A stretch of 54,944 bases of DNA from Prorocentrum cordatum (Eukaryota): positions 62,001 through 116,944 of the forward strand of contig CAUYUJ010000196.1 of assembly GCA_963575745.1 (NCBI GenBank), written 5' to 3'. Under the pieces are notes generated by a model that saw only the letters and a program-made list of their open reading frames with translations, did not search any database and was not told the origin of the DNA. Within the stretch, counting starts at the first letter, position 1; every line of letters starts with the position of its first letter. The translations under genes were made by a program, and so were the position numbers. Below are positions 1,091-50,848 of this stretch, piece by piece.

Positions 1091-1107
1091 AGGAGAAGGA
1101 TGGAATG
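1091..1107 (+). repeat. Target-site duplication, left copy (3' side of LINE)
   Basis: AGGAGAAGGATGGAATG is identical to 5505-5521 and lies 46 bp beyond the RT stop codon. Confidence 0.9.
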
Positions 1108-1153
1108 AATGAGTGCAAGCCAGGTGTCGAAGCACATGGGCAGCAATGCGACA

Positions 1154-4100
1154 CTATGGGCAGTAGTGTCGCACAGCGGCTTTCCAGGCTTCTGCTGGGA
1201 TTGCCGCGAGCTGTCGAAAATCATACGCATTGCTCTCGCAGACTCTCTTCGCATGCTTGTACAATTCATTCGTCCATGACTGTCTCGGCCTGCCCCGGGG
1301 TCGTCTGCCGGCCGGCGGACGCAGCTCCGAAGAAGACGGCTGGAAGACCGCACGCCGCACAGGATGATCAACCGGTTGCCGGGCAATCTGCGCAAAAAGA
1401 CATAATTGACGGTGCAACAAGATGCGGCTCAACGGCGGCCGGCGGGCCCTGTCCAGAACTTCAGCGTTCGAGATACGACTAATGTATGAATGCGGTATCC
1501 TTAACACCTTCCTCAGACACCGCACGCGGAAGCTGTCGAGCTTGGCCAACTCATGTTTCCGGAGCCACGCCGCGTGCAATCCGTACAGCAACTTTGTCTG
1601 CACGCAGTCTTCGAAGATCTGCAACTTCCGTTGTGTGGACAAGGTGGAATGAGACCAGACTCGGGCAAGGGTGTCGAACTCAGCCCTGGCGCAACCAAGT
1701 CGCCTGCTCAGCTCGGAAGCGATCGATCCATCCGCAGCCAAAACACTCCCCAAATAAACCATGGAGTCCTTTTTGGGGATCTGGGCGCCGTCTGGACTCG
1801 TCACGCCCCCCTGGCACCAGATTGTCAGCAATTCAAGCTTCCCCCAATTGAATTTGAGGCCGTAGTTCGTGCCAGCGGCAGCAATAGCTGTCATGTACTC
1901 CTGCGCGCGCTCCGTGCTAGTGGCTACGATGAGCGTGTCATCAGCGTGCACGAGATCCTCCGCGCCCCCCATGCGGTCGCCCAGCGTGACCCGGGCGTCG
2001 CGCAGCAGCGCGGTCATCACCATGGCGAAGAGAAAAGGTGAGAGAGGACAACCTTGACATATTCCCGCGTGCTGCTCGCGGGTCCCTGACGTCACGCCGG
2101 CCTCGCGAACCGCGAAGTTCCTGCCCGTGTAGATGGCTTGAATCATTGTCAACATCTTCCCTGGGACTCCGAAGCGCTGCAGCGCTTCCAGCAGAGGCCC
2201 CGGCATGACGCTGTCGAACGCCTTGGCCCAGTCCAGAGCGAGCAGCACGAGCTGGCCCTCTGCGCTCGACCACGTTTCCTCCAGCCTCCGCCTGGCGAGG
2301 AAGATGGCGTCGGTGGTGCCGTGGCGCGATTTGAATCCAAACTGGGCGCCCCAGATGCGGCCCTCGGCCCCGGCGTCCTTCAGGCGGCGGAGGAGAAGAG
2401 TCGCAAACAACTTGCACCCGGCCTGGAGCAGGCACACTGGTCTGCAGTTGCCGCAGAGCGCGGCGTCACCCCTTTGAACAACGCAATCACTAAGGAATTG
2501 TGCCAAGATTCTGGCACGACGCCCTGGTCCCAACATCGCCGGCACAACGCTAGCGCCCATGCTCTCGCCGGGGAGTCGCGAGCGCAGGTCGCTTTCCAGA
2601 AGTCGCCGGGGATGCCGTCACTGCCGCACGCCTTGCCCCACTTCATGCGCTTTGCTGCCTCGGTCACCTCCCAGTCTTCGATCTGCCCCAAGTTGACCGG
2701 CAAGTCGGGGCCAATGGGGCGTTGTCGACATCGGCGCGGTGTCGCGCGCGGCCCACTGCACCTCCGTCAGGAAGTCTGCCAGCGTGTCCGCACGGACCTC
2801 GGAGTCAACCAGGTCGCCGCGAACGTTGCGAAGTTTGCCTTGCTTCCGCCCGGCCCCTTGACACAATCGTCGCACCTGGCCCCAGTCGCCCGTCGCCAGG
2901 AAGTGTTCCAACCGCTCCGCCCTATCCGTTTTCACAGAGCTCTTGACGACGTAAATCAAACGTCTCTCTTCTGCCAAGTCGCCGCGTGTTCTGGCCTCGG
3001 TGCGCTTCGCGATGAGCGTCATGGCGCGGTCTAAAATCCACGGCTTCCGCGGCGCCGGCGGCGCTATAGGTAGCGCGGCGGCTGCCTGTTGGAAGGACAC
3101 CACGGCTGCAGCATCGATTTCGCTGGCCCCACCGTCGCCCGCGTCGGCGGCCTCCATCTCGTCGGCAAAGGCCACGGCGAAACGGTTGGCATGCTCTGGC
3201 AGCCGGAGAGCCCGCAAGTCAGGCCGAGTCGATTGCTCGCGGCGGGCCTCGATCGGCACCATTATGTCCACGTCCGCCTGCACGAGGACGTGGTGAGACG
3301 CCAGTGCCAAGTCCTTGTTGATTGCCACTGATTGCAAATGCTCAGCCCAATTCTGTAAAACCAAAACAAAATCGATCTGGCCAAAATTGTCCGGCGTGTC
3401 AGGGTGAGATGGCTTCTTGCCCACGTTGTAGCAGGTGACCTGACGACGTGCTGGCTCATGAAACATTGTGTTGCCAATGCAGAGTTCGTGATGCTCGCAC
3501 AGCTCAACCAGCAGGCGGCGGTTGGAAGCGGCGTTGTGCTCAGCCTCCGGGCGCCCAAACACATGCGGTCCCATGATATGCTCTTCTTGCGGGGGGCGCC
3601 TGCGCAGGCGCGCGTTAAAGTCTCCGAGCAAAATCATCGGGCCGTGCCGCGACGTCTGAGCGAGGAAAGCTCCAAGAGATGTGAAGAACCGCTGCCTGTC
3701 CTCGAAGTTCTTCCCGTTATGCGGCGCATACGCGCTGCCAACGATAACTTTCCCGCCTTGCACCCGCAACCTCACGTATGCCATTCTTGCTGACTCCTGC
3801 CTGAAGCCGACCGCGCTCGAGCGCAGCCGCGGAGAGATGATGAAGCCAACGCCTGCCGTCTCTTTATCCTCCTCGTCCGCGGACCCAGAGAAAATGAACA
3901 AGTAGCCGCCGTCCGATACGAGGTAGTCTGATATGTCCCTGTGAGTCTCTTGCACGCACCAAATGTCAATGCTCTGTTGGCGCATGTGCCATTCCAGCTC
4001 GATCTCTTTCGCGCCCGTGAAACCCTCAACGTTCCAAGTGGCAATCCGGAGCTGCCGCGAGCAAGGTCTGAGGCCGCCACCTCGGAAGACACGTGCCTGT

Positions 4101-4240
4101 CCGGCCCAGTTGAGTGGAGGCTGCTCCACAGTAGTGCCGACTGTGGGTGAAACTACGTCGTTCGTGCATTCATGAGTTTTCAAACGATGATGGCTTGTAG
4201 TTGCAGTATTGCCGACTGCTGCCGGTGAAACTCTGCCCAT
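1154..4240 (-). pseudogene. LINE ORF2: apurinic-type endonuclease + reverse transcriptase, split by two frameshifts (~2720 and ~2472)
   Basis: EN motifs in 2618-4240: ATWNVEG, CVQET, GVGF, YAP, LGDFNAR, QIDFVL. Linker KACGSDGIP..W..IALFK in 2380-2703. RT motifs in 1154-2470: GD..N(C)RP..LL, QFGF, LDWAKAFDSV, QGCPLSP, HADD (1937-1948), YLG, and C-terminal RGRPRQSW. Confidence 0.93.
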
Positions 4241-4252
4241 GTGCTGTGCGTC

Positions 4253-5434
4253 CTAATGGGGCCCGCTGCCCCTGCCCTTCCCTTTGGTTCCGCCCTTCAT
4301 GCCCTTGCCGGCACGAGCGAGCAGATCCACAGACTTGGTCGCGAGGTCCTTGATGAGGGGGTGGCCGTGCAACTCTTCCCACGAAACCCACGCGCCGCGC
4401 CACTGGTACTCAACGTCGCGGTCCTTCACGGTCGCTGTCAACGCGTGCTCGCCACCAACGACCACCTCGTAGGGGTCCTCGTCCGACACGTTCACAACGT
4501 ACGGCACTTTGAACTCCTGCTTCAGGATCCGCTTGAAGCCAAGGCAAAAGTTGCGTGCCGCCCAGTTCGCTGGTGAGCGATCTTCACTAGCCCACACCTT
4601 CTTCTCGCCGTTGGTGGGGGCGCTGGCACGGAGGACCTCGACTGCACGGTCACGCTCGTCTGTAGTGCCAAACTCTTTAAACAGAATGCCGTTGAACTCG
4701 CCTTTCGAGTAAATCTTGGACGGGGCTGGCGAGCACAAGGCCTTGAGGCGCTCCGTCAGCCACTGGATCGACGTGGCAAGGTCCCCCAGGCCGTCCAAAT
4801 TTCCAACGACCATGCTCAAGGACCTCTTGGACATCAGCGTGAGCGAAGAGGCTGTGGTTTTTGGGGTGGGGCTCGCCGAGAGGGCTTCCTTGATGTACTC
4901 CTGGGTCTTCATCTCGAACGCGTCCCCTCCCGGAATCTTCGGCGCCATCGTCTCGTACATGGTCTCTAGCTTCTCGACGCGCATCTCCGTGGAGTTGATG
5001 CTCGCCTCCACGTCCCCCAACCGGCCGCCGAGGGTCTCCGCAAGGTTCCCGACCTTGCCGTCTAAGGTCCCGAGCTTCTTTTCGAGGTCCTCCACAACGT
5101 TGGTGACCGGGGCGAGCTGCTGCTGGAGGAGTGCAGCAATGCCAGCCATTGTGACTGGCTCGGCCTCGGCCGCCATAGCTTCTCCGAAATCTGGTTGGCG
5201 AACAGCGTCCCCGGGGCCCCCCGCCATCGGCACGTACCCCTCGAGGTGGGCCTGCGCGTCATCCAGGAGAGGGGTGTACGGGGAGTCGGGGCCGTGGCCG
5301 GAGCGCTGCTTCTTGGCCGCCATGTTCGCCCACGGGTCATTCTCCTGGAGGCCGTCCTTGAACAGATGGCCTACCGGGGAACCTGGCACGCGGGACCGAG
5401 GCTTCGGGGTAGCAATACTATGAGCATCCGCCAT
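4253..5434 (-). CDS. LINE ORF1 protein (coiled-coil + probable RRM-like domain, basic GK-rich tail), 393 aa
   Basis: Open frame from the ATG at 5434 (MADAHS..). Heptad stretch VEDLEKKLGTLDGKVGNLAETLGGRLGDVEASINSTEMRVEKLE, followed by SMVVGNL..ILFKEF..ERDRAVEVL..VWASEDRS. Sits directly upstream of ORF2 inside the TSD. Confidence 0.8.
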   Translation of the reverse strand: MADAHSIATPKPRSRVPGSPVGHLFKDGLQENDPWANMAAKKQRSGHGPDSPYTPLLDDAQAHLEGYVPMAGGPGDAVRQPDFGEAMAAEAEPVTMAGIAALLQQQLAPVTNVVEDLEKKLGTLDGKVGNLAETLGGRLGDVEASINSTEMRVEKLETMYETMAPKIPGGDAFEMKTQEYIKEALSASPTPKTTASSLTLMSKRSLSMVVGNLDGLGDLATSIQWLTERLKALCSPAPSKIYSKGEFNGILFKEFGTTDERDRAVEVLRASAPTNGEKKVWASEDRSPANWAARNFCLGFKRILKQEFKVPYVVNVSDEDPYEVVVGGEHALTATVKDRDVEYQWRGAWVSWEELHGHPLIKDLATKSVDLLARAGKGMKGGTKGKGRGSGPH

Positions 5435-5504
5435 GTTAGGAGGGGAATGTAAGGGGAATGGAAGTAAGGTGAAAGTAGAGAAAGTCGGTACCAATCGTTG
5501 CAAA

Positions 5505-5521
5505 AGGAGAAGGATGGAATG
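5505..5521 (+). repeat. Target-site duplication, right copy (5' side of LINE)
   Basis: Identical to 1091-1107. Confidence 0.9.
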
Positions 5522-5526
5522 GGGGG

Positions 5527-6237
5527 TAATCTGAATCTGCGTATGACGTCACTCCGCTGGGCCCCCCAGCAGCCCTCGAAAGTGGCGACAGTTTCGCAGA
5601 TCGCAGCCCCCCAGGGATGGCGAGGTCTAATCTGAATATGCGTATGACGTCACTCCGCTGGGCCCCCCAGCAGCCCTCGAAAGTGGCGACAGTTTCGCAG
5701 ATCGCAGCCCCCCAGGGATGGCGAGGTCTAATATGAATCTGCGTATGACCCCACTCCGCTGGGCCCCCCAGCAGCCCTCGAAAGTGGCGACAGCTTCGCA
5801 GATCGCAGCCCCCCAGGGATGGCGAGGTCTAAGCTAATCTGCGTATGACCCCACTCCGCTGGGCCCCCTGACAGCCCTCGAAAGGAAAGTGGTGACAGTT
5901 TCGCAGATCGCAGCCCCCCAAGGATGGCGAGGTCTAATCTGAATCTGCGTATGACGTCACTCCGCTGGTTCCCCCCAGCAGCCCTCGACAGTGGTGTCAG
6001 CTTCGCAGATCGCAGCCCCCCAGGGATGGCGAGGTCTAATCTGAATCTGCGTATGACTCCACTCCGCTGGGCTCCCCAACAACCCTCGAAAGTGGTGACA
6101 GTTTGGCAGATCGCAGCCCCCCAGGGATGCCGAGGCCTAGTCTGAATCTGCGTATGACGTCACTCCGCTGGGCCCCCCAGCAGCCCTCGAAAGTGGCGAC
6201 AGTTTCGCAGATCGCAGCCCCCCAGGGATGGTGAGGT
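5527..6237 (+). repeat. Tandem array, 7 copies of a ~101-bp unit
   Basis: Unit TAATCTGAATCTGCGTATGACGTCACTCCGCTGGGCCCCCCAGCAGCCCTCGAAAGTGGCGACAGTTTCGCAGATCGCAGCCCCCCAGGGATGGCGAGGTC. Copies start at 5527, 5628, 5729, 5830, 5935, 6037 and 6138. Confidence 0.97.
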
Positions 6238-6335
6238 AGGAGACAAAATGGCACGCAGGAGCGAGCGAGGTAGGAAGCAGGGGGAAGAGGAAAGGAGGGG
6301 GCGGGAGAGGAGAGGAGAGGAGTCGCGACCGCAGC

Positions 6336-6377
6336 CGCTCTATTCAAAACGAGAACCCAACGCAGGAGGGTTGGGAA
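6336..6377 (+). other. Conserved array-terminal motif with hairpin (copy 1)
   Basis: CGCTCTATTCAAAACGAGAACCCAACGCAGGAGGGTTGGGAA with a CCCAAC/GTTGGG stem. Homologous to 50800-50848. Confidence 0.8.
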
Positions 6378-7410
6378 TTAACTAAACTTCGATTCCCCAT
6401 AGAACACGCCAGGAAAACCTTGGACAATCTGCACAACAATTGAAGAACACTGAGACCCTCCCCAACGAAAAGGGTTCCAGCGGCCCAGCTGCAAAATCGA
6501 TCGAGACGGAGGAGGACTCCTACACCTGGGTGTCAAACCGTGCGCGCTGGCCTGGGCGCCGCTGCAAGAACACGACGGGCGCTTTTGCCTGGTTTCGGAC
6601 CCCCCGCGGCCCTGACAAATCGGCCCAGCTCAGACACCGCGCGAAGGGATGGGCCGAGAGGGGGACTCAAGAGTGGCGGTACCGTATGCGTGCGGGGGCG
6701 CTCTCGCGGGAAATCCTGCACGTCTGCACCTCGTCTGCGTCGCCGCCGCCACGACAAAAACGTTGCCCCGCCGACCGCCACCTCGCCCGCTCCTGCTGAC
6801 GACGAGGAGGTCCGCGCACACTCGGATCGGGGCTGGGCCCGCCTCCGGCACACACCCCGGGGCGCGCCTCGCGCGCCAGGGAGAGGAGGTCCAGAGGCTG
6901 CTCACGAACCCCGCGCAGACATCCGACAGTTGTCGTGCCGTGCCTGCACAGCTCTTGCCTTCATGGCAATGACATGGGCCGCCACAGCGTCCGCAGTGCG
7001 TCAAAGATGGCCGCTTCGCGACGCCTCGACGCGGCGGCGACGCTGGAGATCTTCTCTGATCTGGTTTGACCGACTTCTAGCTGGAAGTGATCCCAGTCAC
7101 CCTCCTCAGCAGACTTGAAAGCTGACGTGGGAGGTTGGGAAACCGTGCGCGTAGCAGGCTGGATATTGAATCCCGTCGGGGGATCGAACTGTCGCTCCTC
7201 GACGAATCCAAATGTGGGACGTGTGCCCTGATACCGTCGCCAGGGCAAGAATAGCAACGAGCGCGTTGCCGATCAACGAACACGCAATGTGTCGTGGTGC
7301 AGTGATCTCTTGGGTGAGCCTTGATGGAAACCAGAGTGAAAACCCGCGGCCCTATCATAAACGTGACTTCGACCGGATGTCGTCCAGAGTTCGGCCACCC
7401 CTCTTCACCC

Positions 7411-9243: not shown

Positions 9244-9525
9244 TCCTCCTCCTCCTCCTCCGCCTCTTCCTGGTCTTCCTCCTCCTCCTCCTCCTCATCA
9301 TCATCATCAAGCCTCATCCAGCTCCTCTTTCTCATCCCCCATGCCTCCGCCTCCTCCTCCTCCTCTCCTCCTCCTCCTCCTCCTCCTGCTGGCCCTCTCC
9401 TCCTCCTCCTCCTCTCCTCCTCCTCCTCCTCTACTCCTCCTCCTCCTCCTCCTCCTCCTCCTCCTCCTCCTCCTCCTCCTCCTCCTTCTCCTCCCCCTCA
9501 TCCTCCTCTCCTCCTGTTCTTCCTC
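9244..9525 (+). repeat. Degenerate (TCC)n microsatellite
   Basis: Long runs of TCC. Similar tracts occur at 796-838 and 8491-8550. Confidence 0.9.
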
Positions 9526-9708
9526 CGCCCCATCATGCCGCACCTCTCGCCGTCTACCCGCCCCTCCTCATCTCGAACAGGCCGATGACGTGTCGATCCC
9601 GCTGGTTCAACGGGGGTTGCCCACAGCATCACCATGGGTATCCCCCGTCTCTCCCCCCACATTGGCCCAGCGCCTGACAGACGCCGCAGACCCCTGGGAG
9701 GATGTCAG

Positions 9709-10120: not shown

Positions 10121-10190
10121 TGGTGATGATGCTGATGGTATTATCGATGATGATGATGATGATGATGCTGATGATGGATGATGATTCTGC

Positions 10191-10248
<58 letters not shown>

Positions 10249-10925
10249 GGTGATAATTATGATGGTGCTGATGCTGGTGCCGTCGACAACGGTGACGTTA
10301 AGGATGTTGATGATGATGGTGGTGAAGATGAAGATGATGGTGGTGAGATTACAACGTCGATAATGAGAATGATCAGAATGATAATGATGACAATACAAAA
10401 TGCGAATGATAATGCTGATGCTGATGATGATGCCGACGCCGAGAACGACGAGGACGACGTCGGCGACGCTGACGGTGATGACGATGATGGCGATACCGAT
10501 GACGAGCCTAATGACGATGATGGTGATGATGATGATTGCTGATGATTATGATTATGATGTTGATGCTGATGACGATGCTTGTGATGACGATGGTGATGAT
10601 GGTCATGCTGCTGTTGCTGATGATGATGACGATGCTGATGATGATGATGCTGGTGATAATAAGAATGATACTGATAAGGATGATGATGATGCTGATGGTG
10701 ATGATGGTACCGCTCACGCTGACGCTGGCGCTGCTGGCGATGATGATGCTGATGACGATGGTGGTGCTGATGAGGTTGATGTGTATCTTCATGATGACGA
10801 TAACGATGATGATGCCGAAGGTACTGACGACGATGACGGGGACAATGACGATGAACGATAAGTGATGATTGATGGTCGTGATGACGATGAGTCTGGTGGT
10901 GGTGATGATGATAATGATGATAATG
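10121..10925 (+). repeat. Degenerate (GAT)n microsatellite
   Basis: About 800 bp of GAT with GAC/GGT/GCT variants. Confidence 0.95.
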
Positions 10926-13593
10926 CATGCGGTTCAGGATGAGTGGATCCGCTTGCCAATTCCACTCGCACTGCCCCCTGCACCTATTGACCTCGCCTCG
11001 CTTTCGCCCGTCATCTCTGACCCTGGTCGCCCTGTCTAGCGGATTGATCACCCACTTCCGCCAGCCACCACTCCCCCTCTTTCCCCTGTCGCTCTGCCCA
11101 GGAGGTGTTAGGAAGTCCTGGAAGGGGGGCTCAAGGAGGTTCTTGGAGGTCCGCTGTATCACTTGTCTTTCCTACTCCTTTCCCCCCTCTATAGATATAC
11201 CCATATATATGTACACACCTCTCTCTCTCTCTCTCTTTCCCGCCCCCATCTTCTTTGCTCCTCATATACAATCCTCTCCTCCCCTTCCTCCCCACACCGC
11301 ATCTCACGGACACATGGAAACGCGGCGTCGTGCAACGGGCAACACGCAGCGCCCAGCGGTAGACCAACGGCCATCCCCCTCTCACTCCCTTCTTACTATG
11401 GCCCGTTCAGCTCAAAGGCCGCCCTCGATCGCAGACCAATGGGATAGAACCGCTTGCAGAGTGGAATCGACCGAATCGACCCACCACCAGTGCAGGAGGG
11501 AAATCGCCCCTTAGGGGTGCATGATCGAGTCGATCGATTCCGCGCGCAGATGCCAGACATCGGCATGCATCCATCGCCAAACCATCGAGCCGCGGATGGC
11601 GAGGCGGTGCTCCGAAGATTGGCTCCTCAGCCACAGGGTGCCCAACGGGGGGCCAGTCGAGGAACCTGTACCGCCGTCCTGGGGCTCCCTCTCTGGGCTG
11701 AGGCCGACAGAAGCCACCTTAGAAAACAAAACATGCCGAGCGAAAACCTGGACCACCTGACTGCACGCATCTCACACCGCGATGCGTGGTTCTCGTCGCG
11801 CCCTCGCGCCCTCGCGCCCTGGAGAAAGGCAAAGCCCTCAGGCCCATGCCGCGACGCGCGCAGCGCGAACACCTTCGCGCCCCTGGGGGTGGCCTAAGAT
11901 GCAGCTTCAAAGCCTCGTCGCTCTGGAGGGCCATGGCCGCCCTCCTCGCCCCTCTCCTGCCCCCCTCCCCCGATGGCCCCCGAGAGGGCCGGGAGGCCCA
12001 GGACCCCCGCGACGAGCGCAGCTGCACGCAAAGCTGGGCTCTGCGCCAACAACGCCAAGCCCAGGCCACGCGCCTTGCCGCCTGCCCCTCCTCGCCCGTC
12101 TCTGCCCGCCCCCCGGTCTGGAAGGCTTCGTCTGGCGGCCATGTGATGTGGTTCCCCCTGCTGTGCACCGCACTGCTCGGGGCGGCTCGGGGAGGGGGTC
12201 GTGGCCATCCTCGCTGGAGGTGGCCCGCTGGAAGCGGTGGTGTCGCTCCTCCTCCCTTCGAGATCCTCGATCCTCGGCCCCCATCAAGAAACGACAACGA
12301 GCCGAACCCTGGACATGTCTGGGGATGCGTCCTAGCCAGAACTTCGAGGCGGATCCAGCCGAGGCGACGACGCCGAATGAGCCCCAGGACGCGCAAAAAT
12401 GGCGAACAACGTCCCAAAGGCTTCGAGCCTCGACCGAGCTGCACTTCCCCCTTCAGGAGGGGCATGCCCCGCACTCCCCCAGACCAGCGCGAACGGCGGC
12501 GTCCTCGTTCTCGGTGGCCGAGGACGGCCGGCGGTTCCAGGAGGGCTGGCCGGCGCCCTCAAGCGGGAGCGGGCGCTCTCTCCGAGTGAAGGGGTGGCCG
12601 GGGAGCATATTCAGCGCAGACTGCGCGCTCATCTGGCCCTGCTGTGTGCAGGGACGCGCCCATCAGGGCGGGACTGGCAAGGCCCTGCCGTGGCCCAGGA
12701 GGCCGCCCAGATGTGGCCAGAGTGATGGGGTCGGAGGTGCCACCGCACTGCCGATGCTCGGGTGACGTCAGGATTGAACGTCGGGCGCAGGGTCACGATT
12801 GTGTCCGGCCCCATCTACCCCGGCCCCCATTTGGGCGGCCTGGGGATGAGATAGGATTTACCCCGCGGCAAGAACACGAAAGCGGACTCAGGTCGTGGCC
12901 GACCTCGCGGTGTATAGCCTCTTGCAACCGGCCGCCGTACTGTCCGACCGACACCCTCTGGGCATGGGTGAATTAGCGGGTCAGCCCACGCAGGACAACC
13001 CCTGAGTCTCCCCCTTCGGGGATCGGACTATTGGCAATCGCAGCAGTATCACCTCGGCAGAAATAGCAGAGGCATCCATAAAACTGGATGGTACCAGTTC
13101 AACGCTCTGCAATTGATCAGGAACATGTTCAAGATAGTGTCCCCTTGCGCCCTCGTCCCCCCTCCCCCCCCTCCTCCCCCCCTTTTTTCCCTCCCCCCAA
13201 TTCCCCCCTCCCTCTAGTCCCATCTTCGGACGGGTCCAGAGGCTGATTTTGCGAGGACATTTCGTGTGAAAGACGCTCGTTTGGGGTGATCCTTGCGCTC
13301 GCCGTCATCCCTCGTCCTCGGTCTTCGTACGGCGATTGGTGGCCGCAGCTCGTCGTGCGCTGGGAATCTGGATGGTGTGCGTTCAGAAGACAAATCTGAA
13401 CACAACCGAGCCACACCTCAGAAGTATCCGATTTTCCAAGTGCGTGGGCTCCGATCGTCACTACCTTTTTGTTGCGCTCTTGGGAACTGAAGTTACGCCC
13501 CAAATATTTGCTGACGATTGCGGGGCCCCAACACGGCCGCAAAGGCGCCCCTCATGGTTCGACAGGTTCGGAGCCACTCGGCTACACTGGGAA

Positions 13594-16980
<3,387 letters not shown>

Positions 16981-16981
16981 A

Positions 16982-30267: not shown

Positions 30268-30890
30268 TTCGCGCCCGCTCGAGGATGGCGCGCCTCGCGC
30301 ATGGCAACTAAAGCCTGCGCCACCTGATCCACGCGCGCCTGCTCGAGGATGGTGCAGCCCCCGCGCGGCAGCTATTGCCTGACCCCCCCCCCATCCACGC
30401 GCGCCTCTTCGAGGGCGGTGCACCCCCCACATGGCAGCAATACCAGAGCATCCTTCCACGCGCGGCCGCTCGAGGATGGTGCACTTCCCGCATGGCAGCT
30501 ATGCCTGGGCCCACTTCCACGGGTGACTGCTCGAAGATTGTGCACTTCCCGCGCGGCGGCAAATGCCTGGCCCCCCATCCACGCGCGCCTGTTCGAGGGC
30601 GGTGCACTTCTCGCTTCCCGCATGGCAGCTACTGCCTGAACCCTCATGCCATGCGCAACCGCTGGGCGACGGCGCACTTCCCGCGTGGAAGTTATGCCTG
30701 AATCCCCTCCCACGCGTGACCGCTCGAGGATTGTGCACATCCAGCGCGGCAGCTATTGCCTGAACCTGCCAGTCCACCCGCGCCCGGCCGAGGCTGGCGC
30801 AGTTCCCGCGCGGCAGCTAATGCCTGAACCTCCCTGTCCACGCGCGCCCACTCGAGGATGGTGCACTCCCAGCATGGCTGCCGCATCCCA
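30268..30890 (+). repeat. Degenerate tandem array, ~10 copies of a ~62-bp unit
   Basis: Consensus-like unit CCACGCGCGCCTGCTCGAGGATGGTGCACTTCCCGCATGGCAGCTATTGCCTGA + C-rich linker, recurring every ~61-70 bp. Confidence 0.9.
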
Positions 30891-34330: not shown

Positions 34331-34939
34331 CCATGTGCCAGTCGGTGTACTGTGGTCGTCGTCACCTAAGACCTAGGACCTCGAAGAGACGCCCGCGATC
34401 GGCTGAAAAGCAGATATGGCTGAGACACGTACTCTGCGCATGTGCTACCATTGCTGTGTCAACAAACTGAGACCACATCAACTTCTCGTGTCTGGCTGTC
34501 CGAAAGGCCTGGAGAGCAGCCGAACAACATAGATGGCATTGTACCCTCGTGCACCGCCGTCGACCATGGCGCCGCAATGTGGCACCTGTCCGCTGAAATT
34601 GGAGGGTGAAAGAGGGGGTCTGCAACAGGGGGTTTTCAATGGGGGCTGAATGGCCCATGTATGCTCAATGTATCGCTCATGTATGTGAACGGGAACGATT
34701 GGCATCCAATGTTGGCGGTCATTGAGGGCCGGTCGTTCGTGCCCGCGCGTTGCCCGCGCGGGCACGCGCGCCGTCCATCCATTATCGTTCATGCGTGCGG
34801 GGGTTCTTAGATATTGCGCGTGGGGCAGCGAAGTGGAGTGCAAGTGTGCCTTGATTGTGCGATTGATGATCGTGTATGTTCCCAAGCGATGACTTCTCGA
34901 CCCCCAAGACAGATTTGGAACGGGGGCCTCTTTTCTCCC

Positions 34940-35162
34940 AAAATGTGAATTCACATTTTCCTTTTTACCAAAATGTGAATTCACATTTTCCTTTTTCCCA
35001 AAATGTGAATTCACATTCTGGCCCCTTTCATAAAGAATCCTACACATAATTCCAAAATGTGAATTCACATTTTCCTTTTTTTCCAAAATGTGAACTCACA
35101 TTTTCCTTTTTCCCAAAATGTGAATTCACATTTTTTTTCCCCACAATGTGAATTCACATTTT
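34940..35162. repeat. Array of 7 copies of a 20-bp perfect palindrome at ~30-bp period
   Basis: AAAATGTGAATTCACATTTT at 34940, 34970, 35000, 35054, 35085 (one mismatch), 35115 and 35143. Linkers are CCTTTTT(T)CC, with one longer unique insert after copy 3. Confidence 0.95.
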
Positions 35163-42269: not shown

Positions 42270-43756
42270 GCGTGCAGCAGCGCTGTCTACATGGAAGATC
42301 GTAAAACCGGAAATCCGTAAGATCGTGTCGACGAGGTAAAAGATGTCGAACCTCGCGCCGAAGCCGCTGCTGAAATGCGCCGGCAAAGATTGGCCACCCT
42401 CGCTGCTGCAATCGCCGACGACGCAGCGGAACGCTGTGAACGAGCACTTCGGCACCGTGCCGCAGAGCCTCTCTGCGTAGATCCGACGCCTTTCGCAGTC
42501 GGGGCCCACGCCTACCTGAAATCTGACGCGTCACCAGGGCCGCGCACACTTGCCAAATCAGTCTTGTCAAGGCTGGGCCCCCCCGCAATCCGGAGACTCA
42601 TCGCCGCCAGAGACCTGCCGCGACCCCAGATGGCGACCGAAACCCACAAGAGGGCCGGCGAAGCAATCACTAATCCCATGACAAAATTCGAGATCTCGCG
42701 GACCAACGGCGAACGGCAAACCCTCGGAAGACGCCCGAGCCGAAAGAGTCGGAACACGCGGAAGACTCGTGCGAATTTGCCGCAGTCCACCCCGTCCTCC
42801 GAGCGATGCCGCGGACCATGCCAGATATCGTTATCCATGAACCAAGATCCCGCAGGCTAAGTTCGCAGCAAAGATGGCCGCGACCACGACCTCCAACACG
42901 AGCCAGCCGCCCCATTCATGATCCGTCTGTTTGCTGAGGCCCAAACAGAATACGCTCGCAATAGCAGTCAGCCGGACGGCTATCTATTCAGGGTGCTGTC
43001 CAGGTTCCTGCGCCAACGTGCGCTCGTCTCAAACTCGACTCCAGACGGATGCAGGTCCTCAGTCGTTGCGAGGCGCGTCCGAGACAGCTTGGCAATGGTC
43101 TCATTAACGCTATGCTTGAGCAGGACCTCTTGTATCTTGGTGGCGCCACGAGGGAATATTGGCTCCACCTGGCTCGGGAGATCGGGCATCAAGGTGGCGT
43201 CTACGAAGGCTTTGATAAAACATACCAGTGTCGCACCGAGGAGAACTAGTGCCAGCGCCTTGCCTCTTCGAATCGGCGTTATGCTGGCCAACTCTATGTT
43301 TTTTTACTATCAGGGTCGGATCGCACGGCGACGCGCGCAATATCCCGAAGGGCCATGTCCAGGAATATGTCCTTCATGTTGTACCAATATATCGTAGCCA
43401 ACACTTGGTTCAGTTGCTCGGCGGTGACTGTTTGGCCATGCTGCCGCGACACGTCCAAGCCGAACATATCGAGAAAACGCAACCTCTGCTTGACGACCTT
43501 CGCATGCAGTGTTCACCTTCCCTTGCGGCACCTCCACCAGAACCTCCTGCACAACCAGGACCTCCACCTCCGGGTTCTGCACCGGTCCGCCTCCCCGTGG
43601 CTCACTGCTCGACGACACCTGGCCGGGAATACTGATGCTGCCCCCGCGTTGTAGCTTCTGCCGCAGCCTGTAAACCTCTTCGGCAAACTCGTCCTTCTCT
43701 TGCTTCAGTTTGCTGTGCTCGTCAGCGAGCCTGGACAGCAACTGCTGGAAGTCCAT
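42270..43756 (-). pseudogene. SL-capped processed pseudogene of a single-domain voltage-gated ion channel
   Basis: ATG at 43756: MDFQQLLSRLADEHSKLKQEKDEFAEEVYRLRQKL (coiled coil). S1-like LTAIASVFCLGLS..TDHEW; S2-like GWLVLEVVVAAIFA; S4 ARVFRVFRLFRLGRLPRVCR; S5 FVMGLVIASPALLWVSV; pore GTVPKCSFTAFRCVVGDCS; S6-like RFDIFYLV. Multiple frameshifts and no evident introns. Confidence 0.8.
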
Positions 43757-43811
43757 CGCGGCGGCCAGCCAGCTCACCTTGGAGGCCCAGGGGCGGCGCG
43801 GCTGCTGGTCC

Positions 43812-43833
43812 CTCGAGCCAAACTGGCTACGGT
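43812..43833 (-). other. Dinoflagellate spliced-leader (DinoSL) relic
   Basis: The minus strand reads ACCGTAGCCAGTTTGGCTCGAG versus DCCGTAGCCATTTTGGCTCAAG, a 20/22 match, 55 nt upstream of the channel ATG. Confidence 0.9.
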
Positions 43834-44194
43834 TTCGCATTCTCGCCTTTTCGGGTTGCCGTCAGCTCAAGACGGCCCACGGGGATTCCTTGATGGCCCA
43901 AGAAGCAAGCATCCAAGACGGCCCCAAGACGGCCCACGAGGGCCTCCAGTGGAACCCAAAACGGCCTTAGAAGGCCCTTGGCCTGCCAGAGACGGCGCCA
44001 AGGCGATCCCACGACGGCCTCCACACCTCCACAATACGGCAAAGAATCCCCAAAGACGGCCCAAGAGAACCCAAAGCTGGCGTAAGAGGGCCCAAAGACG
44101 GCCCAACAGGGTCCCAAGGGACCACCAGGACTGCCTCACAGGGGGTCAAGCCAGCTCCACAGACTGCCCACACAAGATCCATCATCATCATCAT

Positions 44195-44249
<55 letters not shown>

Positions 44250-44260
44250 GTCATCATCAT

Positions 44261-44314
<54 letters not shown>

Positions 44315-45587
44315 GATCATGATCATCATCAACATCGACATCGACATCACCATCATCATCATCATCCTCATCATCGCCATCCTCATCCTCATCCTCATCA
44401 TCATCCTCATCCTCATCAGCATCTAGTACAATCATCATCATTATCATATTCCCCATCATCATCAGCATCGTCATCATCATCAGCATCGTTATCGACATCA
44501 TCATCATCATCATCATCAGCATCATCATCATAATCATCATAATCATCATCTATTATCATCCTCATTATCAGCATCACCATCATCGTCGGCCTTCTCATCA
44601 GCAACATCATCATCATCATTATCATTATCATTACCAGTAGCATTACCACTATCATCGTCACCATCATCATCATCATCATCATCATCACTACCACCACCAC
44701 CACCACTACCACCATCATCATCATCATCATCATTTGAATTGCACATCATCTTCAACATTTAAATTGTCATCATCATAATCATCATCATTATCATCATAAT
44801 CATCATCCTCGTCATCATTATCAGCATCCTAATCATCTTCAGTATCATGATCTGCATCATCATCACTATCATCAGCATCAACATCACCGTCATCATCATC
44901 ATCAACAAAATCATCATAAATATCATCATAGTGCACATCATAAAGATCATCACAGCTTCATTACCACCATCATCATCACCATTTGCGTCAGCGGTACCAT
45001 CATCAATGATAACACCATAATCATCAACAACATCATCAATGTAATCATCTTCAGAAGCAGCAGCAGCATTATCACCACCAGCACCATTACCATCAACCTC
45101 ATCATCGGTACCATCATCACCATGACCATCACTTTTGACCACTAAGATTGTCCTCAACATCATCACAATCACCATCAACGACCACCATCATCACAATCGT
45201 CCTACTCCTGATGATGATAATCATCATCATCACCATCACAATCACCATCATCATCGTCACCTTCCTCATCACCACCATCATCACATCCATCATCATGTTC
45301 ATCATCATCAGCATTATCATCATCAGCAGTATCAATAGCATCGTCATCATCATCATCATCACTACCATCATCATCATCATCATCATCATCAACAACAACA
45401 ACATCAACATCAACATCAACATCAACAGCATCGTCATCATCCTCATAATCCTCATCATAATGATTACAACTCTCCCCAACCTGGAGAAACGAAGTGTCAC
45501 ACGTGACGGCTTACCGTGCTCCCTCGAACAATCGCCACCCAGAAGGCTGTCCTGGCACGGTGGCGGGGCTTGCCGCAGGCAGCTGGA
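43834..45587 (+). mobile_element. 5'-truncated copy of the CCAAGACGGCC / microsatellite / GCACGGTGGCGG element family
   Basis: CCAAGACGGCC repeats at 43860-44170, (CAT)n at 44180-45465, and terminal GCACGGTGGCGGGGCTTGCCGCAGGCAGCTGGA at 45555-45587 matching 8742-8773. Confidence 0.55.
44180..45465 (+). repeat. Degenerate (CAT)n microsatellite
   Basis: About 1.3 kb of CAT and variants. Confidence 0.95.
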
Positions 45588-48119: not shown

Positions 48120-48560
48120 CCGTGACCATGCGCAAATTTCTCGCCCCTGAACCTCGCGAACAGGCAAGCGCACGTTTCAGCCCGCCCGCCGCTCTGGACG
48201 GCGCGGCGCCCGCGGCCGCGAGCAAATGGCACCGCCGAGCGCGGGGGCCGCTCTGCCCGAAGCGCGAACGCGGATCGGTCGTGCTTGAATGCTGGGACAC
48301 TAGCTCCAGGGTCCTCGCCGACGACCAATCGGAGCAGCGAGCGAGCTGCGTCGAACAGGCGCGGCTGGTCTACGGTGCTTTCACGGCGAGAAAGGCGCCG
48401 CCGCTGGCTTCCAAACGATCGCTGAGTAGCGAGAGATCGCGACGGCGGGCGACCATTGCATCGCCGGGGCGAGGGAACATGGCGAAAACAACCGTAGCCC
48501 GAAAGAGGGCGCGAGGCACTGGCGGGCAGGGCGCGGAGGGCCCAACAAGTCCCCACTGCT
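48120..48560 (+). pseudogene. Possible decayed RT fragment
   Basis: SRVLADD followed by A..VYGAF.ARKA.LASKRS resembles the xADD region of non-LTR RTs. Other motifs are not recognisable. Confidence 0.3.
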
Positions 48561-48647
48561 CGGCCACGCCGCAGGCCTCCAAAAGAATTAGCCAGACGAA
48601 GGACCCAACCATATGCAGGTGTGAGTACCGCAATTGTGATTCCCTTT

Positions 48648-48700
48648 TTCGGTGGTGATCCCTATGGGGCAACGAACCGTGCTAGTGGTGTGCCGAAATG
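48648..48700 (+). repeat. Solo degenerate half-copy of the 90-bp satellite unit
   Basis: TTCGGTGGTGATCCCTATGGGGCAACGAACCGTGCTAGTGGTGTGCCGAAATG aligns to the array unit. Confidence 0.8.
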
Positions 48701-49285
48701 AATGGCGTGGTACACAACGCGAACGAAAACGATCGATCTGAATACGTAGGGAGACTGAGCGCGGGTGAATCTGAGCGCGAGCGCGTCTGACTGTGAATGA
48801 ATCTGCGTGCGAGCGAGTCTACGTGCATGAATGAGAGTATGCCAATGCATGGTGCAATTGTATATGAATTCTAATAGTTTGTGAATGACTGCCTCTGAGT
48901 ACTCGTGACGCTGGGCGTGGCCGCCGCAAGGAGCTTCCCCGGGACTCCCCGACGGCATCGCCCGCGCGCCGCGACGCCACCGCGAGGATCGCGCCCGCTT
49001 CCTCCCCTTCTTTTACTCCCTCTTTGCCCGCGCACTCAAAAGTCCAAAGCTGCGGGCGCAGCGCAGCGCGGAGTCCCAGCGACGCGCGCAGGTCGCCCCG
49101 GAGGGGTCCCAGCGACGCGCGCGGGTCGTCCGCTGCGCGCAGCAAAGAGAGCTAGCTGGCTGGCTGATACCGGGCAAGGCTCTTGCCGCTGGGCAGAGCG
49201 ACGACGGGCGAGGGAGGCGCGGAACTCCGACGGCCTCCGACGGAGGTGTACTGGGCGGGGGAGACGCGTGCGGACTGCGCCACGG

Positions 49286-50760
49286 AGACCTTCGGTGGAG
49301 CTCCCAATGGGGCCACGAAACGCGTGAAGGGTGTGCCGAAATGGGCGTGCGGGACGCATGCGGGCACGCCCACTGGGGCCTTCGGTGGAGCTCCCTATGG
49401 GGCCACGAAACGTGTGAGGGGTGTGCCGAAATGGGTGCGCGGGACGCATGCGGGCACACCCACTGGGACCTTCGGTGGAGCTCCCCATGGGGCCACGAAG
49501 CGTGCGAGGGGTGTGCCGAAATGGGCGTGCGGGACGCATGCTGGCACACCCACTGGGACCTTCTGTGGAGCTCCCCATAAGGCCACGAAGCGTGTGAGGG
49601 GTGTGCCGCCATGGGTGTGCGGGACGCATGCGGGTACACCCACTGGGACCTTCGGCGGAGCTCCCTATGGGGCCACGAAACGCGCGAGGGTTGTGCCGAA
49701 ATGGGCGTGCGGGACGCATGCGGGCACGCCCACTGGGGCCTTCGGGGGAGCTCCCTATGGGGCCACGAAACGTGCGAGGGGTGGGCCGAAATGGGCGTGC
49801 GGGACGCACGCGGGCACACCCCTGGGACCTTCGGTTGAGCTCCCTATGGGGCCACGAACGTGCGAAGGGTATGTCGAAATGGGTGTGCGGGACGCATGGG
49901 GGCACACCCACTGGGACCTTCGGTGAGCTCCCTATGGGGCCACGAAACGTGCGAGGGGTGTGCCTAAATGGGTGTGCGGGACGCATGCGGGCACACCCAC
50001 TGGGAACTTCGGTGGGGCTCCCTATGGGGCGAGGGGTGTGCCGAAATGGGCGTGCGGGACGCATGCGGGCACGCCCACTGGGGCCTTCGGCGGAGCTCCC
50101 TATGGGGCCGCGAAACGTGCGAGGGGTGTGCCGAAATGGGTGCGCGGGGCGCATGCGGGCACACCCACTGGGACCTTCGGTGGAGCTCCCCATGGGGCCA
50201 CGAAACGTGCGAAGAGTGTGCCGAAATGGGCGTGCGGGACGCATGCTGGCACACCCACTGGGACCTTCGGTTGAGCTCCCTCCCCATGGGGCCACGAAGC
50301 GTGTGAGGGTTGTGCCGACATGGGTGTGCAGGACGCATGCGGGCACGCCCACTGGGACCTTCGGCGGAGCTCCCTATGGGGCCACGAAACGCGCGAGGGG
50401 TGTGCCGAAATGGGTGTGCGGGACGCATGCGGGCACACCCACTCGGACCTTCGGTGGAGCTCCGTATGGGGCCACGAAATGTCTAAAGGGTGCGCCGAAA
50501 TGGGCGTGCGGGACGCATGCGGTGGAGCTCCCATATGGGGCCGCGGAACGCGTGAGGGGTGTGCCGAAATGGGTGTGCGGGACGCACGCGGGCACACCCA
50601 CTGGGACCTTCGGTGGAGCTCCCTATGGGGCCACGAAACGTGCGAGGGGTGTGCCGAAATGGGTGTGCGGGACGCATCCGGGCACGCCCGCTGGGACCTT
50701 CGGCGGAGCTTTCTATGGGGCCACGAAGCGTGTGAGGGGCGTGCCGAAATGGGTGTGCGG
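49286..50760 (+). repeat. Tandem array, ~16-17 copies of a 90-bp unit
   Basis: Unit GGGACCTTCGGTGGAGCTCCCTATGGGGCCACGAAACGTGCGAGGGGTGTGCCGAAATGGGCGTGCGGGACGCATGCGGGCACACCCACT. TTCGG anchors at 49291, 49381, 49471, 49561, 49651, 49741, etc. Confidence 0.97.
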
Positions 50761-50799
50761 AGGAGGAGGGGGCAGCGGGAGGACGGTGGGAACGCGGGG

Positions 50800-50848
50800 C
50801 GCTGTCTCTTCAAAACGAGGACCCAACAACACAGGTTGGTTGAGAAAA
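50800..50848 (+). other. Conserved array-terminal motif with hairpin (copy 2)
   Basis: CGCTGTCTCTTCAAAACGAGGACCCAACAACACAGGTTGGTTGAGAAAA, homologous to 6336-6377. Confidence 0.8.

What the first reader, a model, noticed from the sequence alone, without database searches (positions are those of the whole stretch)
5527..6377. Two unrelated satellites end in the same conserved hairpin cap (array + purine spacer + TTCAAAACGAG(A/G)ACCCAAC)
Seen: the 101-bp array (5527-6237) and the 90-bp array (49286-50760) have no obvious unit homology. Each is nevertheless followed on the same strand by a G/A-rich spacer and the motif CGCT..TTCAAAACGAG(A/G)ACCCAAC..AGG..GGTTG(G/A)GAA (6336-6377 and 50800-50848). 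The core matches at 18/19 positions and a CCCAAC/GTTGGG stem is present. A weaker third match, ACGAAGGACCCAAC (48596-48609), sits next to a solo 90-mer. Inference: these are members of a modular non-autonomous mobile element, in which a fixed terminal signal (an HUH/rolling-circle end or an RT recognition site) carries interchangeable tandem cargo. This could be a route for satellite birth and dispersal in dinoflagellates.
Basis: partly seen in the sequence, partly recalled or inferred. Interest (0 to 1): 0.85.

Follow-up and report, generated by a model that had tools for sequence, protein, structure and literature searches.

The report
Satellite-carrying transposon-like element in dinoflagellate DNA
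Two unrelated tandem-repeat arrays in this dinoflagellate-type DNA end in the same roughly 100-base module, and the same module sits beside other arrays in marine metagenomes, so it is most likely one end of a small non-coding mobile element that carries satellite repeats around the genome.

Summary
The 101-bp and 90-bp arrays are real and unrelated. Each is followed on the + strand by a purine-rich tract and the same core, TTCAAAACGAG(A/G)ACCCAAC, plus a CCCAAC/GTTGGG hairpin. An exact-motif scan of metagenome contigs gave 37 loci. 13 of them share the module and the other 24 are chance hits. In those 13, homology stops sharply after GTTGGG and an A-run.

Merging one duplicate pair leaves 14 independent copies. 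7 of these have a long-period array upstream on the same strand, and none has one within 600 nt downstream. The arrays fall into three unrelated types (90-mer family, 101-mer, 111-mer). A second conserved box ("head") bounds the far side of the arrays in 5 places. It carries an 8-9-nt inverted copy of the outer hairpin arm.

Read on the minus strand, the order is T-run, subterminal repeat plus nearby inverted repeat, core, microsatellite, tandem array, complementary subterminal repeat plus tail. This is the layout of DINE-1/HINE, the non-autonomous Helentron-type rolling-circle elements. A retroposon reading is the main rival, because the A-run fits the dinoflagellate poly(A)-site motif.

The adjacent LINE is a separate insertion with a 17-bp target duplication. 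Mobility, exact termini and an autonomous partner are not shown.

The parts
5527..6237 (+). 101-bp tandem array, 7 copies; cargo of the site-1 element
   Evidence: TRF. No other copy in the window or in any fetched locus. Unrelated to the 90-mer and 111-mer units.
6238..6335 (+). Purine-rich low-complexity tract between array and cap. On the minus strand it is a (CCT)-like microsatellite.
   Evidence: Sequence. 78% purine in the 120 nt upstream of the motif. L012 929-1044 aligns to 6257-6377 at 79%.
6336..6377 (+). Cap 1, subfamily A. Core 6343-6361, stem arms 6356-6361 and 6370-6375, then AATT. On the minus strand it reads AATT | CCCAACCC ... GTTGGG ... core.
   Evidence: nhmmer E 2e-14.
1108..5504 (-). 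Non-LTR retrotransposon (ORF1, AP endonuclease, RT). It inserted later at the edge of the 101-bp array and is not part of the element.
   Evidence: Pfam Exo_endo_phos 4e-10 and RVT_1 7e-31. Flanked by a 17-bp direct repeat. In-frame TAG at 4253-4255 and TGA at 2618-2620.
1091..1107 (.). Left copy of the LINE target-site duplication, AGGAGAAGGATGGAATG
5505..5521 (.). Right copy of the LINE target-site duplication, 5 nt from the start of the array
48546..48625 (+). Head box of the site-2 element. On the minus strand it is the 3' subterminal repeat plus tail.
   Evidence: nhmmer E 2e-15 against a model that includes this row. Independent alignments to the L011 and L015 heads beat 298-300 of 300 shuffles.
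48648..48700 (+). Solo partial 90-mer next to the head
   Evidence: blastn 87% over 53 nt.
49280..50760 (+). 90-bp tandem array, about 16 copies; cargo of the site-2 element
   Evidence: TRF. Same family as the arrays in L003, L015, L030 and L032.
50761..50799 (+). Purine-rich tract AGGAGGAGGGGGCAGCGGGAGGACGG, conserved in L003, L022/L037 and L032
50800..50850 (+). Cap 2, subfamily B. Core 50809-50827, 5-bp stem 50823-50827 with 50835-50839, A-run 50845-50849 followed by C.
   Evidence: nhmmer E 1e-19.

Best explanation
The two sites are copies of a modular, non-coding, probably DNA-mobile element built like DINE-1/HINE. Those are the non-autonomous partners of Helentron/Helitron2-type rolling-circle transposons.

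On the minus strand the element reads as follows:
- a host T-run;
- a 5' subterminal repeat, CCCAACC;
- 7-11 nt further on, an inverted repeat (GTTGGG) that pairs with it.
- a conserved core, TCCTCGTTTTGAAGAGACAGCGCCCCGCG;
- a microsatellite or low-complexity tract, (CCT)n-like here and (AATC)n in L007;
- a central tandem array whose unit differs between lineages (90-mer family, 101-mer, 111-mer);
- a 3' box (the 'head') carrying the complementary subterminal repeat, followed by a tail of about 46-62 nt.

Shown: the architecture, its fixed orientation, the sharp outer boundary, dispersal to unrelated flanks, and the different arrays. Inferred: a Rep/helicase supplied in trans recognises the two ends and copies whatever lies between them, so arrays that arise or expand between the ends are carried to new sites.
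For: 1. 13 of the 37 metagenome loci found by the exact motif share about 100 bp around it, while their flanks are unrelated.
2. GTTGGG lies within 30 nt of the core in 9 of 13 related loci and in 0 of 24 unrelated ones.
3. Homology ends right after GTTGGG and an A-run. On the minus strand at least 2 T directly precede the arm in 11 of the 14 printed copies that have sequence there. The exceptions are L030, L001 and W50809. L031 ends at the contig edge.
4. Long-period arrays lie upstream on the motif strand in 7 of 14 independent copies: W6343, W50809, L003, L015, L030, L032 and L007. None of 11 independent copies has one within 600 nt downstream. The three unit types show no similarity.
5. 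A low-complexity tract always lies between array and cap. In L007 it is 550 bp of (ATTG)n.
6. The head box is found 5 times: window 48546-48625, L011, L015 twice, and L007. It always has the same orientation. Four heads are followed by array units. The L011 head is followed directly by the cap, giving an array-less form of about 135 bp.
7. Head and cap outer arm are inverted repeats: 9 nt in L011, 9 nt in L007 and 8 nt in L015. L007 has the same 1-nt deletion at both ends.
8. This order matches the published DINE-1/HINE description: subTIRs, an IR 3-22 bp from the 5' subTIR, a microsatellite, central repeats, the 3' subTIR 38-60 bp from the end, T-rich targets with variable T number, and no TSD (passages of PMC4067079; PMC7492417).
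9. In L015 two elements lie head to tail with only TT between them.
10. A RepHel of the Helentron/Helitron2 clade has been reported in a dinoflagellate (passage of PMC8788227).
11. A k-mer search for words of 8 nt or more found no convincing target-site duplication around any of the 15 copies printed. The LINE in the same window has a clear 17-bp one.
Against: - No Rep/helicase, endonuclease or any other Pfam domain was found in ORFs of 120 aa or more in the 13 loci, or in ORFs of 110 aa or more in the window outside the LINE and 13.8-17 kb.
- No genome is held, so copy number, empty sites and an autonomous partner could not be checked.
- The 3' stem-loop that defines DINE-1/HINE is not conserved at the head end. 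Only one of four folded heads has one.
- The inverted repeats are 8-9 nt, shorter than the published 11-15.
- The head-side terminus is inferred only from where homology fades.
- The hairpin shows no compensatory change. Its folding energy is unremarkable (z -0.75 to -2.3, and +0.2 at site 2).
- The 5' arm is invariant by design of the search pattern.
- The A-run followed by G/C also fits the dinoflagellate poly(A)-site motif, which a retroposon would explain.
- 6 of 14 independent copies have the cap and tract with no long-period array, and no head was found beside them on their short contigs. L011 has a head but no array.
Confidence: 0.45

Rival explanations
1. A non-autonomous non-LTR retroposon of the SINE or SVA type, read on the + strand. 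The transcript would run head - VNTR-like array - purine tract - 3' hairpin - poly(A) site. A LINE reverse transcriptase copies it, the hairpin serves as the RT recognition site, and cap-only copies are 5'-truncated.
For: - The module ends in A4-6 followed by G or C in 11 of 13 related loci, against 6 of 24 unrelated ones. This matches the genomic poly(A)-site motif AAAAG/C reported for dinoflagellates (abstract and passages of PMC2488372).
- The boundary is sharp on the A-run side and the extent is variable on the other side.
- The same window holds a LINE with a target duplication and a retrocopy that starts with a spliced-leader relic and ends in A7C. RNA-mediated copying therefore occurs in this genome.
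Against: - No target duplication was found around any copy, unlike the LINE.
- A-runs are only 2-6 nt long.
- The only LINE available ends ...CACTCATT and has no cap-like 3' end.
- None of the 13 loci has RT homology (tblastn; Pfam).
- The model does not explain the inverted repeat between head and cap, or its shared indel.
- The head is not a spliced-leader relic: 23-39% of random window segments score as well.
- DINE-1 itself was at first misfiled as a non-LTR element because of its asymmetric ends (passage of PMC4067079).
Confidence: 0.25
2. Not a transposon. The cap and head would be conserved boundary sequences of one dispersed satellite family, spread by segmental duplication, ectopic recombination or circular DNA. 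The 101-mer adjacency would be secondary.
For: - 5 of the 7 arrays belong to one family, and array-cap junctions are shared. W50809 and L030 end at the same unit position, and so do L003 and L032.
- The 101-mer pairing is seen once.
- No mobility evidence was obtained.
Against: - Cap-plus-tract copies with completely unrelated flanks and no array exist: L022/L037, L019, L012 and L031.
- L011 holds an array-less head-plus-cap form, next to a conserved gene.
- A third, unrelated array (111-mer, in L007) lies between a head and a microsatellite-plus-cap, in DNA of much lower G+C.
- The outer boundary is identical to the base in copies whose neighbours are unrelated.
Confidence: 0.12
3. A cut-and-paste MITE with short inverted ends, or some other unknown DNA element that is not of the rolling-circle type.
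For: Inverted 8-9-nt repeats near both ends and a compact array-less form of about 135 bp. DINE-1-like elements were also once classed as MITEs (passage of PMC4067079).
Against: The ends are strongly asymmetric: the repeat is terminal at one end and roughly 50 nt inside at the other. No flanking duplication was seen. No transposase domain was found nearby.
Confidence: 0.08
4. The arrays are promoter monomers in the 5' UTR of the adjacent minus-strand LINE, as in mouse L1, and the cap is the LINE's 5' end.
For: The LINE ORF1 ATG lies 93 bp from the 101-bp array, on the strand that would place the cap upstream of it.
Against: The LINE is bracketed by a perfect 17-bp direct repeat at 1091-1107 and 5505-5521, which leaves the array outside it. 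For that search space the chance expectation is about 1e-5. None of the 13 related loci has LINE protein homology. Site 2 has no LINE.
Confidence: 0.01

Closest known systems
DINE-1 / HINE (Helentron-associated interspersed elements) of Drosophila, mites, oysters and other invertebrates
   Same: Same order of parts. The 5' subterminal repeat has a nearby inverted repeat nested in it. A conserved core, a microsatellite and central satellite-like tandem repeats in a fixed orientation follow. The complementary subterminal repeat lies tens of nt from the other end. Flanks are T-rich with a variable number of T, no target duplication is seen, and array-less forms exist.
   Different: The inverted repeats are 8-9 nt rather than 11-15. 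No conserved stem-loop was found near the 3' terminus. No partner is known. The host is a dinoflagellate-type genome. Two full-text searches listed no such element in dinoflagellates.
Helitron2-type elements, including the Helitron2-like RepHel element reported in Symbiodinium microadriaticum
   Same: Asymmetric terminal inverted repeats and palindromes near the ends (passage of PMC4067079). The lineage is reported in a dinoflagellate (passage of PMC8788227).
   Different: I have no sequence of that element to compare its ends with. Our element is non-coding.
SVA and related VNTR composite retroposons of hominoids
   Same: A non-autonomous composite with an internal variable tandem array, a low-complexity tract and a constant end next to an A-run. 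Modules are exchanged between families. The SVA structure is recalled here; PMC3287187 was seen only as a title and abstract in a search listing.
   Different: No target duplications, no long A tails and no matching LINE 3' end. Inverted repeats between the two ends are not a feature of SVA.
Canonical Helitron
   Same: A hairpin near one end, no target duplication, and capture of foreign sequence.
   Different: No conserved 5'-TC or 3'-CTRR, and no insertion between A and T. The nucleotides after the hairpin are A-runs of variable length. The canonical features are recalled, not read here.

Membership tests
DINE-1/HINE (non-autonomous Helentron-type) | Subterminal inverted repeats of about 11-15 bp at both ends | tested here: inconclusive
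   Inverted repeats are present but short: 9 nt (L011), 9 nt (L007), 8 nt (L015) and 6 nt within the window's site-2 element. L007 shares an indel at both ends.
DINE-1/HINE (non-autonomous Helentron-type) | A short inverted repeat 3-22 bp from the 5' subTIR, with its partner nested in the subTIR | tested here: met
   CCCAAC and GTTGGG are separated by 7-11 nt (20 in L030). GTTGGG is present in 9 of 13 related loci and 0 of 24 unrelated ones.
DINE-1/HINE (non-autonomous Helentron-type) | A microsatellite after the 5' module, followed in some copies by central tandem repeats in a fixed orientation | tested here: met
   A (CCT)-like tract or (AATC)n lies between cap and array in all 7 array-bearing copies. 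All 7 arrays are on the same side and strand.
DINE-1/HINE (non-autonomous Helentron-type) | A stem-loop or palindrome 8-35 bp from the 3' terminus | tested here: not met
   Folding four head-side tails gave a clear hairpin only in L015 head 1. Z-scores ran from -1.0 to +1.0.
DINE-1/HINE (non-autonomous Helentron-type) | Insertion into T-rich sequence with flanking T's, and no target-site duplication | tested here: inconclusive
   At least 2 T abut the cap-side arm in 11 of 14 copies with sequence there. TT follows the inferred head-side end in L015 (both heads) and in the window, but that end is only inferred. No duplication was found. No empty site was available.
DINE-1/HINE (non-autonomous Helentron-type) | An autonomous partner (RepHel, with or without AP endonuclease) that has the same ends | not testable with these tools
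   No genome is held. No Rep or helicase domain was found in the window or the loci.
SINE/SVA-type non-LTR retroposon | Target-site duplications flanking the copies | tested here: not met
   The k-mer search for words of 8 nt or more gave only low-complexity or array-internal matches. The LINE in the same window shows a 17-bp duplication.
SINE/SVA-type non-LTR retroposon | A 3' end shared with a partner LINE, or a poly(A) tail | tested here: inconclusive
   A short A-run followed by G/C occurs in 11 of 13 related loci. The one LINE available has an unrelated 3' end.
Canonical Helitron | 5'-TC and 3'-CTRR termini, with a hairpin 10-12 nt before the 3' end | tested here: not met
   No conserved CTRR follows the hairpin in the 14 aligned copies. 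The feature list is recalled.

The most novel reading that the evidence does not exclude
Dinoflagellates harbour a family of Helentron/Helitron2-dependent non-autonomous elements. Their two short ends act as a universal shuttle for tandem arrays. New satellites (90-, 101- and 111-bp units, and 4-nt microsatellites) are born between the ends and are then seeded across these very large genomes and across genera. If so, rolling-circle elements would be a main driver of satellite turnover in dinoflagellates.
Probability: 0.3. Interest if true: 0.7.

Novelty: new member of a known kind. Interest (0 to 1): 0.5.

Why it matters
Dinoflagellate genomes are huge and full of repeats, but the mechanisms that create and disperse their tandem arrays are poorly described. 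This element has two short conserved ends and can hold any of several unrelated arrays. It gives a concrete, searchable marker: the 19-nt core plus the head box. With a full assembly, that marker allows counting such carriers, finding their autonomous partner, and testing whether satellites spread by transposition. It would also extend the DINE-1/HINE type of satellite carrier, so far described in invertebrates, to alveolate protists.

Tried and rejected
- LINE 5'-UTR monomer idea: rejected by the 17-bp target duplication.
- Head box as a decayed spliced-leader relic: local alignment is no better than 23-39% of random window segments.
- 101-mer as a diverged 90-mer: no similarity above shuffles.
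- Rfam: nothing in the window at gathering thresholds, and nothing at 6200-6500 up to E 10.
- Pfam on stop-to-stop ORFs of 110 aa or more in the window, except about 13.8-17 kb: only the LINE domains, plus two weak hits below the curated cut-offs. ORFs of 120 aa or more in the 13 loci gave only four weak sub-cut-off hits in L007.
- More caps or heads: nhmmer profiles found none beyond those listed. The exceptions are a weak head in L007, which inspection confirmed, and a 19-nt loop-like fragment in L003.
- Own genome: none is held.
- Earlier scan findings: five look-ups, all empty.
- Sequencing runs: one marine-metagenome DNA run with a 0.05 share of words, and no RNA holder listed.
- Viral contigs: one unrelated hit for the core, and none for the 90-mer core.
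- Prokaryote genome contigs: no hit for the 90-mer core.
- Stem covariation: none can be seen, because the search pattern fixed the 5' arm.
- A second small hairpin (CUCUUC/GAGGA) predicted in subfamily B is broken in subfamily A, L011 and L015.

Full report
**Observation.** TRF confirms a 101-bp array (5527-6237, 7 copies) and a 90-bp array (49280-50760). Their units show no similarity above shuffled controls. The 19-nt core TTCAAAACGAG(A/G)ACCCAAC, allowing up to 3 mismatches, occurs only at 6343 and 50809. Both are on the + strand, and none of 100 shuffles gave a match. Each core follows its array after a purine-rich tract. Direct comparison of the two neighbourhoods aligns only 23 nt. The window alone therefore could not show whether this is more than a lucky match next to two arrays.

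**Related copies.** No genome is held for the window. An exact scan of metagenome contigs for the core returned 37 loci. 24 are plainly unrelated. 13 share about 100 bp: a purine-rich tract, GGAACGCGGGGCGCTGTCTC, the core, a loop of 7-11 nt, GTTGGG and an A-run. Similarity to one another ends after that. L022 and L037 are the same locus. L001 and L016 are paralogues that lack the 3' arm.
- GTTGGG lies within 30 nt of the core in 9 of 13 related loci and 0 of 24 unrelated loci.
- Profile searches found no further cap in the window.
- The loci differ widely in G+C (0.46-0.71), so several taxa are probably represented.
- A spliced-leader relic with 2 mismatches lies at 43812-43832, followed by an ORF and an A7C run. 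The leader sequence was checked in PMC6616646.

**Association with arrays.** Long-period arrays lie upstream on the core's strand in 7 of 14 independent copies:
- 101-mer: W6343.
- 90-mer family, with units of 77-128 bp: W50809, L003, L015, L030 and L032.
- 111-mer: L007. Remnants of the unit are followed by 550 bp of (ATTG)n and then the cap.

None of 11 independent copies has such an array within 600 nt downstream. The three unit types are unrelated. Shorter-period repeats are common on both sides and were not counted. The 101-mer pairing is seen only once. 5 of the 7 arrays are one family whose array-cap junctions are inherited, not independent.

**A second end.** A conserved 'head' box, (A)TTAGCCTGGCGAAG..CCCAACC.., occurs five times:
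- in the window at 48546-48625.
- in L011;
- twice in L015;
- in L007.

The orientation is always the same. Four heads are followed by array units. In L011 the head is followed directly by the cap, giving an array-less form of about 135 bp. That form lies about 75 nt beyond the stop codon of a conserved protist gene on the other strand. In L015 a cap is followed after 40 nt by the next head and a second array. The head carries the reverse complement of the cap's outer arm: 9 nt in L011, 9 nt in L007 (with the same one-base deletion at both ends) and 8 nt in L015.

**Interpretation.** On the minus strand the order of parts is:
- T-run;
- CCCAACC repeat;
- its partner, 7-11 nt away;
- conserved core;
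- microsatellite;
- tandem array;
- complementary repeat;
- a tail of about 46-62 nt.

This matches the published layout of DINE-1 and HINE elements, the non-autonomous relatives of Helentrons. Those elements insert into T-rich DNA with variable numbers of flanking T and make no target duplication. In oysters and flies they carry satellite-like central repeats (passages of PMC4067079 and PMC7492417). A RepHel of the Helentron/Helitron2 clade has been reported from a dinoflagellate (passage of PMC8788227).

Some features speak against filing it as a member:
- The 3' stem-loop is not conserved.
- The inverted repeats are short.
- The head-side terminus is only inferred.
- No partner could be looked for.
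- The hairpin shows 83% pairing but no covariation, and its energies are ordinary.

**Main rival.** The A-run followed by G or C fits the dinoflagellate poly(A)-site motif (PMC2488372). The window also shows active retroposition, in the form of a LINE with a 17-bp duplication and a spliced-leader retrocopy. A SINE/SVA-like retroposon read on the + strand therefore remains possible. Against it: no target duplications, very short A-runs, no matching LINE 3' end, and no explanation for the inverted repeats at the two ends. DINE-1 itself was first mistaken for a non-LTR element.

**The LINE.** ORF1, endonuclease and RT lie on the minus strand. At first they suggested L1-like promoter monomers. The perfect 17-bp direct repeat at 1091-1107 and 5505-5521 shows that the LINE (1108-5504) is a later, separate insertion at the edge of the array.

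**Verdict.** The finding is a genuine modular repeat family whose conserved ends enclose different tandem arrays. Confidence by reading:
- DINE-1/HINE-like rolling-circle passenger: 0.45.
- Retroposon: 0.25.
- Non-mobile dispersed satellite flank: 0.12.
- Other DNA element: 0.08.

It is a new member of a known kind of satellite-carrying element, in a lineage where my two searches listed no such report. Mobility and mechanism remain to be shown in a whole genome.

Noticed in passing
window 1108-5504 (minus), repeats at 1091-1107 and 5505-5521: A full-length-looking non-LTR retrotransposon of 4,397 bp with a perfect 17-bp target-site duplication and no A tail. ORF1, the endonuclease part and the RT part are all in one frame, separated by a single TAG (4253-4255) and a single TGA (2618-2620). 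The closest database RTs are about 60% identical.
   Followed up: partly
window 43297-43832 (minus): A likely retrocopy. A dinoflagellate spliced-leader relic (19 of 21 nt) lies at 43832-43812, an ATG about 55 nt downstream opens an ORF, and an A7C run lies near 43300. No Pfam domain was found.
   Followed up: partly
window 13593-16981, 44180-45458, 10124-10706 and 9244-9526: Very long trinucleotide arrays: (AGT)n of about 1,126 copies, (CAT)n of about 424, (TGA)n of about 194 and (TCC)n of 95. They cause strong local skews in G+C and GC skew.
   Followed up: no
window 30270-30878 and 34930-35162: Two further arrays: a 61-bp unit x9.6 (with a 193-bp higher-order period) and a 30-bp unit x8 that contains the palindrome AAAATGTGAATTCACATTTT. 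Neither has a cap or a head nearby.
   Followed up: partly
window 44049-44117; L016 2505-2803; L022 93-229; L037 451-587: A 21-bp repeat, CCCAAGACGGCCCAAGAGG-like, recurs in the window and in three of the related metagenome loci. This may be another shared repeat family of the same organisms.
   Followed up: no
L011 212-1123 (minus): An intronless gene of the PF27522 family, annotated as methyltransferase-like in some sources, with 70-86% identical relatives in marine protist transcriptomes. It ends about 75 nt from the array-less head-plus-cap element.
   Followed up: partly
L031 (cap-oriented coordinates) 3559-3699 and about 3870-3900: Upstream of this cap there are GGTGAG/GGTTAG-type short repeats and a G run of about 28 nt instead of an array. 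An open frame of 1,228 codons on the other strand in 71% G+C DNA has no Pfam match.
   Followed up: no
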